IMG/VR virus record: IMGVR_UViG_3300044859_002168
Span: 1 to 64,000 of that record
Strand: one strand, 5' to 3'
DNA length: 64,000 bases
DNA from: a virus
The notes beneath the pieces are model-generated. The model was given only the letters and a program-made list of their open reading frames with translations, did not search any database and had not been told where the DNA came from. Positions 17,604 through 18,242 of this stretch are shown piece by piece (position 1 is the stretch's first letter; every line of letters starts with the position of its first letter). A program made the position numbers and the translations under genes.

Positions 17604-17632
17604 AAAAAACCCCCACTCGTAAAGAGTGAGGG
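17604..17632 (-). terminator. Intrinsic terminator, repeated family, copy 4
   Basis: CCCTCACTCTTTACGAGTGGGGGTTTTTT on minus strand. Confidence 0.75.
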
Positions 17633-17801
17633 TAGTGAGTCTCGTACAGAAAAAGAATATCAGAAAGAGTTTTAAATGTTAAAGTTTGCTTGTTGAATCT
17701 CTTGACGGTTGAATTTTAAAAGCAAAATCAAATTCTGTTATCATGGTTTTTAGGTAAAGCCGAAGCCTGGATGAAAATTCAATCTCTGACGGACTCAACT
17801 A
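17633..17801 (-). ncRNA. Candidate structured RNA with closing stem and 7-nt periodic repeats
   Basis: 17783-17801 pairs with 17633-17652; internal C(UUCG)G hairpin; seven NN(T/G)YAAN heptamers at 17671-17721. Confidence 0.55.
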
Positions 17802-17804
17802 TCT

Positions 17805-18242
17805 TTAGATTGTTTTGGTTGCGTTGTGGACATCCAATTCATCTTGAAGTTTTTCAATCTTAACTTCAAGAAGTTCAATCAAGTTATTACGACGAACAAC
17901 ATCAATAATGGTAGTTTTCACCATCGGAGTTTCATCACTGTAACGATGCATTTTTCTTACAGTACCTTCACCACAATCTAAACCACGAAGGTGTTTTAAC
18001 AAACTTTTGAGTTCTGACATCTCAAAAATCTTATTGTAAACCCCCATGTTTGCCATGTGGATTTTTGTTTTTAGTTCAACCAAATCGTCAACATTGTTCA
18101 ACAATTCGGTAAGAGTTTCTTCAACGTCATAGTGACGGACCGCACCTTCTTCAACTGAGTTATTCTCATTTAGACGGTGGTATAAGTCTGATGTTTTCTT
18201 CACCAACTTATTTTTTTGTTTAAGAGCTTGTTTAATATTCAT
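17805..18242 (-). CDS. DIP1984/DUF6847-like coiled-coil protein
   Basis: MNIKQALKQKNKL...NSVEEG...LKTKIHMAN...LQDELDVHNATKTI resembles the family pattern. Confidence 0.6.
   Translation of the reverse strand: MNIKQALKQKNKLVKKTSDLYHRLNENNSVEEGAVRHYDVEETLTELLNNVDDLVELKTKIHMANMGVYNKIFEMSELKSLLKHLRGLDCGEGTVRKMHRYSDETPMVKTTIIDVVRRNNLIELLEVKIEKLQDELDVHNATKTI

What the first reader, a model, noticed from the sequence alone, without database searches (positions are those of the whole stretch)
17604..18242. DIP1984/DUF6847-like gene followed by a stem-closed RNA with 7-nt periodic repeats: candidate protein-RNA system
Seen on the minus strand just after the stop codon: TAGTTGAGTCCGTCAGAGA (17783-17801) pairs with TTTCTGTACGAGACTCACTA (17633-17652) and encloses ~130 nt. 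That loop holds a C(UUCG)G hairpin and a phased run TTTTAAA ATTCAAC CGTCAAG (AG) ATTCAAC AAGCAAA CTTTAAC ATTTAAA (17671-17721). An intrinsic terminator follows immediately. Known: periodic single-stranded motifs are how oligomeric RNA binders such as TRAP engage RNA; I know of no established function for DIP1984-like proteins. Inference: the coiled-coil protein oligomerises on its own 3' RNA, one subunit per YAA heptamer, forming a ribonucleoprotein or an RNA-antitoxin-like pair.
Basis: partly seen in the sequence, partly recalled or inferred. Interest (0 to 1): 0.75.

Follow-up and report, generated by a model that had tools for sequence, protein, structure and literature searches.

The report
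Phage gene with heptamer-repeat partner RNA
Right behind a small helical-protein gene of unknown function, this large freshwater phage encodes a conserved folded RNA of about 170 bases that carries a row of evenly spaced 7-base units; gene and RNA travel together in well over a hundred phage contigs and match no catalogued RNA family, so they are probably two halves of an undescribed protein-RNA particle.

Summary
The closing stem, UUCG hairpin, heptamer run and terminator lie where stated.

A covariance model built from 28 homologous loci finds the same RNA directly after the stop codon:
- 49 of 51 distinct loci of a first set, and the other 2 with filters off
- 76 of 80 loci of a second set
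- 5 of 5 strong hits of an RNA-first scan, each with the gene upstream
- one copy in each of 4 near-complete ~300-kb phage genomes

On 43 held-out RNAs the stem is 91.7% paired, against 54% in shuffles. G-U outnumbers A-C 57 to 11. The YAA motif recurs at lag 7 with z = 17. Rfam has no match. Metatranscriptome contigs from three studies join gene and RNA and all stop at 17640/17641.

Best reading: a dedicated protein-RNA pair. Binding is inferred, not shown. A link to RNA repair is suggestive only. The antitoxin idea has no support.

This scan has noted the same gene-plus-RNA pair before on other DNA (34 notes in at least 26 genomes). I found nothing in print.

The parts
17805..18242 (-). Gene for a 145-aa DUF6847/DIP1984-like helical protein. 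The N-terminus is lysine-rich (MNIKQALKxKNKL).
   Evidence: ORF. Pfam PF20935 27.2 bits, E 4.4e-6. NCBIfam NF038048 34.9 bits, below its cut-off. The family holds 1763 clusters at E<=1e-3.
17633..17801 (-). Structured RNA of about 169 nt, from base to base of the closing stem. It starts 3 nt after the stop codon.
   Evidence: Model R1 hits 17634-17801 at 42 bits, E 7.4e-6. The window was not in the model's seed.
17783..17801 (-). 5' arm of closing stem P1
   Evidence: Fold; covariation.
17633..17652 (-). 3' arm of closing stem P1
   Evidence: Fold; covariation.
17757..17768 (-). Small hairpin P2 (AGGC-UUCG-GCUU)
   Evidence: Relatives have a short hairpin of varying sequence at this place. Its folding energy is no better than that of shuffles.
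17722..17745 (-). Segment carrying the conserved GAU...GAU motifs
   Evidence: Conserved columns in alignments A1, A3 and A5.
17671..17721 (-). G-poor tract of roughly 7 heptamers. Family consensus: U-Y-A-A-M-M-N.
   Evidence: Sequence; periodicity; logo. No conserved helix was found in this region.
17667..17676 (-). UUUAAAACUC box, the most conserved stretch of the RNA
   Evidence: Invariant and near-invariant columns.
17604..17633 (-). Intrinsic terminator (10-pair stem plus T tail)
   Evidence: and the fold. A terminator-like hairpin follows 52 of 92 related RNAs.
17640..17641 (-). RNA 3' end suggested by metatranscriptome contigs. It lies inside the 3' arm of P1, 8-9 pairs above the base of the stem.
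   Evidence: Contigs of three runs from three studies stop at 17640, 17640 and 17641. One of them carries sequencing-adapter letters joined at 17640. Contigs give only a hint.

Best explanation
The locus encodes a two-part module.

Part one is a 145-aa DUF6847-like helical protein. Part two is an RNA of about 170 nt that is transcribed with the gene as its 3' extension. A long, irregular closing stem (P1) starts at the stop codon. It holds open a G-poor loop of about 110 nt in which no conserved helix was found, so it is probably single-stranded. The loop contains a small hairpin, GAU motifs, 4-7 phased UYAAMM heptamers and a UUUAAAACUC box.

Shown:
- The RNA is conserved as a structure on the sense strand.
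- It is coupled to the gene and present once per genome.
- It is present in RNA libraries, contiguous with the gene.

Inferred:
- Several copies of the protein bind the heptamer array, probably as the protein is made next to its own RNA, giving a ribonucleoprotein.
- The transcript is cut inside P1, in the manner of RNase III, leaving a defined 3' end near 17641.
- More tentatively, the particle acts in the phage's handling of damaged or cleaved RNA, because end-healing and end-sealing enzymes are frequent neighbours.
For: Coupling of gene and RNA:
- RNA hit directly after the stop in 49 of 51 distinct loci. The other 2 appear with filters off.
- 76 of 80 loci of a second search seeded at the C-terminus; 1 of the 4 misses has no downstream DNA.
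- 2 of 2 MAG contigs.
- 2 of 2 GenBank huge-phage records, one of them a partial hit.
- An RNA-first pattern scan gave 5 hits at E<1e-4, and all 5 have the gene upstream.
- One copy in each of 4 records of 286-324 kb and in the window's own record.

Structure:
- Covariation.
- G-U 57 against A-C 11, and the sense-strand duplex is the stronger in 45 of 49.

Periodic motif:
-.
- The six canonical cellular DUF6847 genes that I sampled have their own lag-7 tract with a different motif (AC at lag 7, z = 6.1; lag 14, z = 5.7). Protein and repeat unit therefore change together.

Protein: the conserved residues are largely basic or aromatic (K4, K8, K10, K12, R36, Y38, K58, H62).

Expression: contigs of 3 studies span the stop codon and end at 17640/17641.

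Context: 55 of 72 loci (40 of 51 distinct) have at least one neighbour within 3 kb, on the same strand, that is a HAD_SAK_2, HAD, metallophosphoesterase, AAA_33 kinase or RNA ligase gene.
Against: - No test of binding or oligomerisation was possible.
- The protein has no recognisable RNA-binding domain. Its only Pfam matches besides DUF6847 are coiled-coil families.
- The repair link is weak. HAD_SAK_2 is single-copy but lies 9-95 kb from the pair in 4 of 4 near-complete genomes.
- The window's record has no HAD_SAK_2 or RNA-ligase match.
- None of the 6 canonical cellular loci has a repair gene beside it.
- No neighbour gene is universal.
- Contigs cannot show that a separate small RNA exists. 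The RNA may remain a 3' UTR.
- The alignments used were fitted to the model's structure, which favours pairing.
- The motif tested was chosen after looking at the sequences.
Confidence: 0.5

Rival explanations
1. The element is a cis-acting 3' UTR. P1 is an RNase III-type processing and stabilising hairpin, of the kind recalled from phage T7 mRNAs. The conserved loop controls stability or translation of the flanking messages, with no dedicated particle.
For: - Contigs join gene and RNA and end inside the 3' arm of P1.
- No promoter-like site lies just upstream of the RNA on its strand.
- P1 begins at or overlaps the stop codon.
- In some subfamilies the next gene starts about 30 nt after the RNA.
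Against: - A processing hairpin does not need a conserved loop of about 110 nt with phased motifs and an almost invariant 10-mer.
- The flanking genes change while the RNA stays with this one gene.
- P1 and the terminator do not overlap, so no attenuation switch is evident.
Confidence: 0.2
2. The RNA works in trans on a host factor, as a decoy or sponge for a host ribonuclease or RNA-binding protein that recognises UYAA-type sites. The adjacent protein is only co-expressed with it.
For: - Multiple single-stranded copies of one short motif.
- Neighbours typical of phage counter-measures to RNA cleavage. Passages of PMC7824862 describe such enzyme sets in jumbo phages.
Against: - A decoy does not explain the strict coupling to one gene family.
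- Nor does it explain the same arrangement, with another motif, behind cellular homologues set among housekeeping genes.
Confidence: 0.15
3. A type III-like toxin-antitoxin pair, with the RNA as antitoxin to the protein.
For: A small protein gene lies next to a repeat-bearing RNA and a terminator.
Against: - No PADLOC match in 3 of 3 family members scanned, and no ToxN/AbiQ-type Pfam match.
- The units are 7 nt, not about 36 nt, and they follow rather than precede the gene.
- The pair sits in a virulent-type jumbo phage among enzyme genes.
Confidence: 0.04
4. A DNA-level element: inverted repeats with iterons, an origin, or a small mobile element.
For: Inverted repeat arms flank short direct repeats.
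Against: - The arms change by compensating substitutions, and G-U is tolerated far more than A-C (57 against 11).
- The sense strand pairs better in 45 of 49.
- The position is fixed relative to a stop codon.
- There is one copy per genome.
Confidence: 0.01

Closest known systems
DIP1984 family / Pfam DUF6847 (PF20935, NF038048; solved structure 3KDQ; often annotated 'septicolysin')
   Same: - A stand-alone helical protein of about 145 aa.
- Marginal model matches; 13 of 32 relatives match at E<=0.01.
- Collinear but weak profile alignment to two canonical members.
- Canonical genes are also followed by a tract with 7-nt periodicity.
   Different: - A distant, mainly viral branch.
- Below the NCBIfam cut-off.
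- The phage profile does not reach 3KDQ, while a canonical member does at E 1.6e-26.
- The N-terminus is lysine-rich and the repeat motif is different.
- No function is in print for the family. Searches for DUF6847, DIP1984, PF20935 and NF038048 found no paper; 'septicolysin' appears only as an annotation label in the listings I saw; 3KDQ occurs in two papers whose titles are unrelated.
Ro60 (Rsr) with bacterial Y RNAs such as YrlA (PMC4201824; search listing and start of abstract seen)
   Same: - A protein gene with its partner RNA encoded next to it.
- The 5' and 3' ends of the RNA form a long stem around a large loop.
- Frequent company of RNA-repair enzymes.
   Different: - No TROVE/Ro gene among the neighbours scanned.
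- No Rfam Y-RNA match.
- The loop is a heptamer array, not a tRNA-like domain.
- The protein is small and helical, not a ring of about 500 aa (the latter is recalled).
TRAP with the trp leader, and HutP with the hut leader (Bacillus; recalled, no call)
   Same: Short motifs repeated at a fixed short spacing on single-stranded RNA, which is how oligomeric binders read RNA. As I recall it, HutP reads UAG triplets spaced 7 nt apart.
   Different: - No TRAP or HutP Pfam match.
- The element lies 3' of the gene, not in a 5' leader.
- It does not overlap a terminator or antiterminator.
Sponge RNAs with repeated protein sites (CsrB/RsmZ for CsrA, CrcZ for Hfq/Crc; recalled)
   Same: Several copies of a short single-stranded motif on one small RNA.
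   Different: Those motifs sit in hairpin loops or at irregular spacing. Those RNAs are not genetically tied to the gene of the protein they bind.
ToxI/ToxN type III toxin-antitoxin (recalled)
   Same: A repeat RNA next to a small protein gene, with a terminator.
   Different: See the membership test: unit length, gene order and protein family all differ.

Membership tests
Pfam DUF6847 / NCBIfam DIP1984 | Score at or above the curated cut-off of the family model | tested here: inconclusive
   Pfam 27.2 bits against 27, so barely met. NCBIfam 34.9 bits against 70, so not met. 13 of 32 relatives match Pfam at E<=0.01.
Pfam DUF6847 / NCBIfam DIP1984 | Sequence relationship to the solved member 3KDQ | tested here: not met
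   The profile of 32 phage proteins finds no 3KDQ at E<=1. The canonical protein of L075 hits it at 1.6e-26. hhalign of the phage profile against canonical members gives probabilities of 34% and 6%.
Pfam DUF6847 / NCBIfam DIP1984 | The same fold as 3KDQ | not testable with these tools
The ESM Atlas holds no model of this protein.
Ro60 / Y RNA | A TROVE (Ro60) gene beside the RNA | tested here: not met
   No TROVE match among the window's neighbours or among the representatives of the 17 neighbour clusters scanned. Rarer neighbours were not scanned.
Ro60 / Y RNA | Match to the Rfam Y_RNA or YrlA models | tested here: not met
   Neither is among the 13 matches at E<=10 in 17000-18600. At gathering score the whole window has only GOLLD and a tRNA.
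TRAP / HutP type attenuation proteins | Protein homologous to TRAP or HutP | tested here: not met
   No such Pfam family at E<=1 for the window protein, or at E<=0.01 for 32 relatives.
TRAP / HutP type attenuation proteins | Phased short motifs on unpaired RNA | tested here: met
   YAA at lag 7, z = 17. No conserved helix in the tract.
TRAP / HutP type attenuation proteins | A binding site in a 5' leader that competes with a terminator | tested here: not met
   The RNA lies 3' of the gene. P1 and the terminator form together in the fold.
Type III toxin-antitoxin (ToxIN-like) | Tandem repeats of about 36 nt upstream of a ToxN/AbiQ-type endoribonuclease gene | tested here: not met
   The units are 7 nt and downstream of the gene. 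No PADLOC or Pfam match of that kind.
Any Rfam 15 family | Match at gathering score | tested here: not met
   Best match in the region is 27.7 bits against a gathering score of 99, E = 0.13.

The most novel reading that the evidence does not exclude
The DUF6847/DIP1984 proteins and their heptamer-array RNAs form an ancient, unrecognised class of ribonucleoprotein shared by phages, bacteria and archaea. The RNA acts as a 'rail' that lines up one protein unit on each 7-nt repeat. The repeat motif co-evolves with the protein. The particle serves RNA-damage or tRNA-related surveillance, comparable in standing to Ro with Y RNA.
Probability: 0.3. Interest if true: 0.9.

Novelty: categorically new. 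Interest (0 to 1): 0.8.

Why it matters
If the pair is a particle, it would give a first function to a widespread family. The phage branch alone has 1763 protein clusters at 50% identity, and a crystal structure of a canonical member exists with no known role.

It would also add a new RNA family with an unusual design: a closed loop displaying phased heptamers. That would be a new way for a protein to read RNA.

Its place among phage end-healing and end-sealing enzymes, in many though not all genomes, makes a role in the fight over RNA cleavage between phage and host directly testable.

Tried and rejected
- RNAalifold on raw MAFFT alignments found no pairs or only 10 pairs, because the stem arms were misaligned. 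I therefore wrote P1 by hand on a better alignment.
- A search for further conserved helices in the core found only P1, both by stacked-pair scan and by mutual information.
- Hairpin P2 is visible in most RNAs with varying sequence. Its energy is no better than that of shuffles: mean z = -0.3, and 14 of 48 have z < -1. I keep it as tentative.
- A test of letter identity at lag 7 on single sequences had no power, even for the window. Only motif counts pooled over sequences show the period.
- The GGAU/UGAA internal loop is present in only 35 of 92 RNAs. It is a subfamily trait.
- PHROGs and PADLOC gave nothing. PDB sequence searches gave only chance coiled-coil hits.
- Anticodon-loop mimicry by the heptamers. 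U precedes YAA in 90% of units, as U33 precedes an anticodon. But the position that would be the purine at 37 is C in 24%, and only 1-2 of 5 units in L075 fit. I reject it as a general reading.
- The 'tRNA-Leu(UAA)' that ARAGORN calls upstream of the gene in L008 and L013 ends in a terminator-like hairpin and looks doubtful.
- The RtcB link reported in earlier notes was not reproduced. None of the 6 canonical cellular loci has RtcB or another repair gene as a neighbour.
- Parts of 17300-18700 without contig cover are not evidence of anything. The terminator region had no cover in runs X2-X4.
- Structure prediction, complex prediction and the look-up of encoding contigs gave no result of any kind (see below).
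- Supplementary files of papers were not consulted.

Full report
**What is in the window.** All features lie on the minus strand.
- A 145-aa ORF at 17805-18242.
- The fold of 17595-17810 pairs 17783-17801 with 17633-17652. It encloses about 130 nt and leaves a separate 10-pair terminator at 17609-17633 with a T tail. The energy is -47.4 kcal/mol, z = -2.81, and 0 of 200 shuffles fold as well.
- The loop contains an AGGC-UUCG-GCUU hairpin (17757-17768), a GAU-rich segment (17722-17745), the heptamer run (17671-17721) and UUUAAAACUC (17667-17676).

The protein matches Pfam DUF6847 at 27.2 bits against a cut-off of 27. It matches NCBIfam DIP1984 at 34.9 bits against a cut-off of 70. 'DUF6847-like' is therefore fair, but membership is marginal.

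The window belongs to an IMG/VR virus record of 89,853 bases that CheckV rates 30% complete, which implies a phage of roughly 300 kb.

**The RNA follows the gene nearly everywhere.** A protein search of viral contigs gave 69 loci at 39-94% identity. Their downstream 230 nt, 51 distinct sequences with the window, share one plan despite very different sequences:
- a 5' arm at the stop codon
- a small hairpin
- GAU motifs
- a run of TCAA-like units
- a conserved TTTAAAACTC
- a 3' arm complementary to the 5' arm
- often a terminator

I aligned 28 RNAs of two subgroups and wrote the stem by hand. The result was 90.9% of cells paired and 10 of 12 pairs changed on both sides, with slid controls at most 57.7%. 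From this I built covariance model R1.

| Search with R1 | Result |
|---|---|
| 51 distinct sources of the first set | hit directly after the stop in 49, 21 of them held out (the window at 42 bits, E 7.4e-6); the 2 misses, which are longer variants, appear with filters off |
| Second protein search, seeded at the C-terminus with 11 divergent representatives: 80 loci | downstream hit in 76, 71 of them at E<=0.05; one miss has no downstream DNA |
| Four near-complete phage records of 286-324 kb | exactly one hit each |
| Two MAG contigs | hit in both |
| Two GenBank 'uncultured phage' records of 462 and 595 kb | 26.2 bits, and a partial hit of 23.9 bits |

**The structure is real, it is RNA, and it is on the sense strand.**
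- Alignment fitted to the model, 49 RNAs: 93.1% paired; all 14 pairs changed on both sides; covariation score 0.734 against 0.272 in shuffles; slid controls at most 54.9%.
- 43 RNAs that were not in the seed: 91.7% paired against 54.2% in shuffles; covariation score 0.869 against 0.236; slid controls at most 53.6%. Both alignments lean towards the model's structure. The hand-made test does not.
- In P1, G-U pairs outnumber A-C mismatches 57 to 11. The sense-strand duplex is the stronger in 45 of 49 RNAs. This excludes a DNA-level inverted repeat.
- Mutual information puts the P1 pairs on top and shows no other conserved helix.
- The internal loop GGAU/UGAA, which could form tandem G-A pairs, occurs in 35 of 92 RNAs.
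- The RNAs measure 158-231 nt, median 182. 52 of 92 are followed by a terminator-like hairpin.

**The period is conserved.** In 39 distinct cores, YAA recurs at lag 7 in 80 cases against 14.8 +/- 3.8 expected (z = 17), and at lag 14 with z = 7.2. The unit is U (90%) - Y - A - A - A/C - A/C - N, with about 5% G. The sequences are related to one another, so the z-values overstate independence.

**Expression.** Twenty-four metatranscriptome runs from 24 studies of fresh, lake and river water hold 6-16% of the sampled words of 17300-18700. I laid four of them, all as assembled contigs.
- One contig covers 17640-18242, a second 17640-18016 and a third 17641-17886.
- All three span the stop codon. 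All three stop within one base of each other, inside the 3' arm of P1 and upstream of the terminator.
- The first has sequencing-adapter letters joined at 17640, in the orientation expected for a minus-strand RNA.
- Contigs can only hint. The hint is a defined 3' end produced by cleavage within the long stem, as RNase III does in phage mRNAs (recalled).
- Whether a separate small RNA is released cannot be told from contigs.

**The protein.**
- The family is large: 1763 clusters at E<=1e-3, 1334 at E<=1e-10. The best 150 are all stand-alone proteins, mostly 137-182 aa with a few shorter.
- ESM-Atlas look-alikes are 86-98% viral.
- The invariant columns include K8, K10, K12, R36, Y38, K58, H62 and N65; K4 is conserved in at least 90%. 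The invariance of the N-terminus in that set is partly due to the search pattern.
- No solved structure is reached by sequence.
- A canonical DUF6847 protein from an unnamed bacterial genome hits 3KDQ at E 1.6e-26. This confirms a lead from earlier notes.
- The phage profile aligns to two canonical members only weakly, at 34% and 6% probability.

**Canonical cellular relatives.** DUF6847 is rare among the genomes I searched: 2 of 401 in one phylum, and 5 of 401 above the cut-off in another.
- R1 finds nothing behind the 2 canonical genes searched with it, L075 and L076.
- Pooled over all six, however, the 260 nt after the stop show a lag-7 period of their own. YAY has z = 5.6, YAC z = 7.7, AC z = 6.1, and AC at lag 14 z = 5.7. 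I chose the motif after inspecting the sequences.
- One of them, L075, lies behind two tRNA genes. Its downstream RNA has a perfect T-arm-like hairpin and an unpaired CAC-type tract inside a closing helix.
- So the gene-plus-periodic-RNA arrangement appears to run through the whole family, and the motif changes with the protein. I take that as the best indirect argument for direct recognition.

**Context.** I clustered the ORFs within 3 kb in 72 loci. No neighbour is universal.

| Neighbour | Loci out of 72 |
|---|---|
| HAD_SAK_2 ('Swiss army knife' RNA-repair phosphatase) | 29 |
| Metallophosphoesterase | 23 |
| RNA ligase | 14 |
| Two other HAD types | 14 and 10 |
| AAA_33 kinase | 8 |

- In all, 55 of 72 loci (40 of 51 distinct) have at least one of these, always on the same strand.
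- The window has the kinase (19025-19429) and the metallophosphoesterase (19634-20392).
- Passages of PMC7824862 describe exactly such enzyme sets as jumbo-phage tRNA repair.
- Against a firm link: HAD_SAK_2 is single-copy but 9-95 kb away in 4 of 4 near-complete genomes. The ligase family is absent or far away in those genomes. The six cellular loci sit among housekeeping genes, with no RtcB.
- tRNA genes lie within 3 kb in only 4 of 50 phage loci.

**Known families.** Rfam 15 has no match.
- In concept the closest are Ro60 with Y RNA (a partner RNA beside the gene, a closing stem, repair company) and TRAP or HutP (phased motifs). The defining features of both fail (see the membership test).
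- A type III toxin-antitoxin reading fails on unit length, gene order and protein family.
- Literature searches for the family names, the PDB code and related RNA terms found no description of the RNA or of a function for the protein.

**Earlier notes of this scan.** A look-up made after my own analysis showed that the same pair had been noted repeatedly on other DNA: 9 notes for one query, and 34 notes in at least 26 genomes for another.
- I tested three of their leads. 3KDQ holds. Companion RNAs behind cellular genes hold in my small sample. The RtcB linkage was not seen in my six loci.
- What is new here: the end-healing and end-sealing neighbourhood in this freshwater phage lineage together with its limits, the coincident contig ends inside P1, the strand test, and the counts above.

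**Verdict.** This is a real, conserved, uncatalogued structured RNA tied to a DUF6847-like gene, and most likely the protein's partner RNA. Binding, stoichiometry, processing and biological role remain to be shown.

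Noticed in passing
window 29463-29873 (-) and 30433-30506 (-): A GOLLD RNA (Rfam RF02032, 318.8 bits) lies beside a tRNA-Met gene. This phage therefore carries at least two large structured RNAs.
   Followed up: no
window 18585-20392 (-): Upstream of the pair, on the same strand, lie a probable dCMP deaminase (my reading of the translation, not scanned), an AAA_33 P-loop kinase (19025-19429) and a metallophosphoesterase (19634-20392). 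The last two make a possible end-healing set.
   Followed up: partly
window 18248-18541 (-) and 17434-17589 (-): Small ORFs of 97 and 51 aa flank the pair. They have hydrophobic stretches and no significant family match.
   Followed up: partly
L075 1187-2256: In an unnamed GC-rich bacterium a canonical DUF6847 gene follows tRNA-Gly and tRNA-Val(UAC). Its downstream RNA has a perfect T-arm-like hairpin. The first heptamer, CUUACAC, differs by one letter from the neighbouring tRNA-Val anticodon loop, UUUACAC. The other units do not fit an anticodon loop.
   Followed up: partly
L018, L020, L029, L032, L033 (about 25-45 nt after the stop, and the matching 3' arms): In this subgroup the GGAU/UGAA-type internal loop occurs twice, 4 pairs apart, in the closing stem. 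This suggests a repeated docking site.
   Followed up: no
L008 2761-2839 and L013 2525-2603: ARAGORN calls a tRNA-Leu(UAA) just upstream of the gene. The L008 sequence ends in a terminator-like hairpin, so it may be a tRNA-like element rather than a tRNA.
   Followed up: partly
heptamer units of the family (window 17671-17721): The unit Y-U-YAA-A-A resembles the general plan of an anticodon loop, with U before the triplet in 90% of units. But the following position is C in 24%. The resemblance remains unexplained.
   Followed up: partly
L016, L049, L055, L060, L066, L068 and relatives: Recurrent gene order: HAD hydrolase, unknown 178-aa protein, DUF6847-like gene, RNA, HAD_SAK_2, unknown 104-aa protein, PNKP-like HAD. 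The two unknown proteins have no family match.
   Followed up: partly
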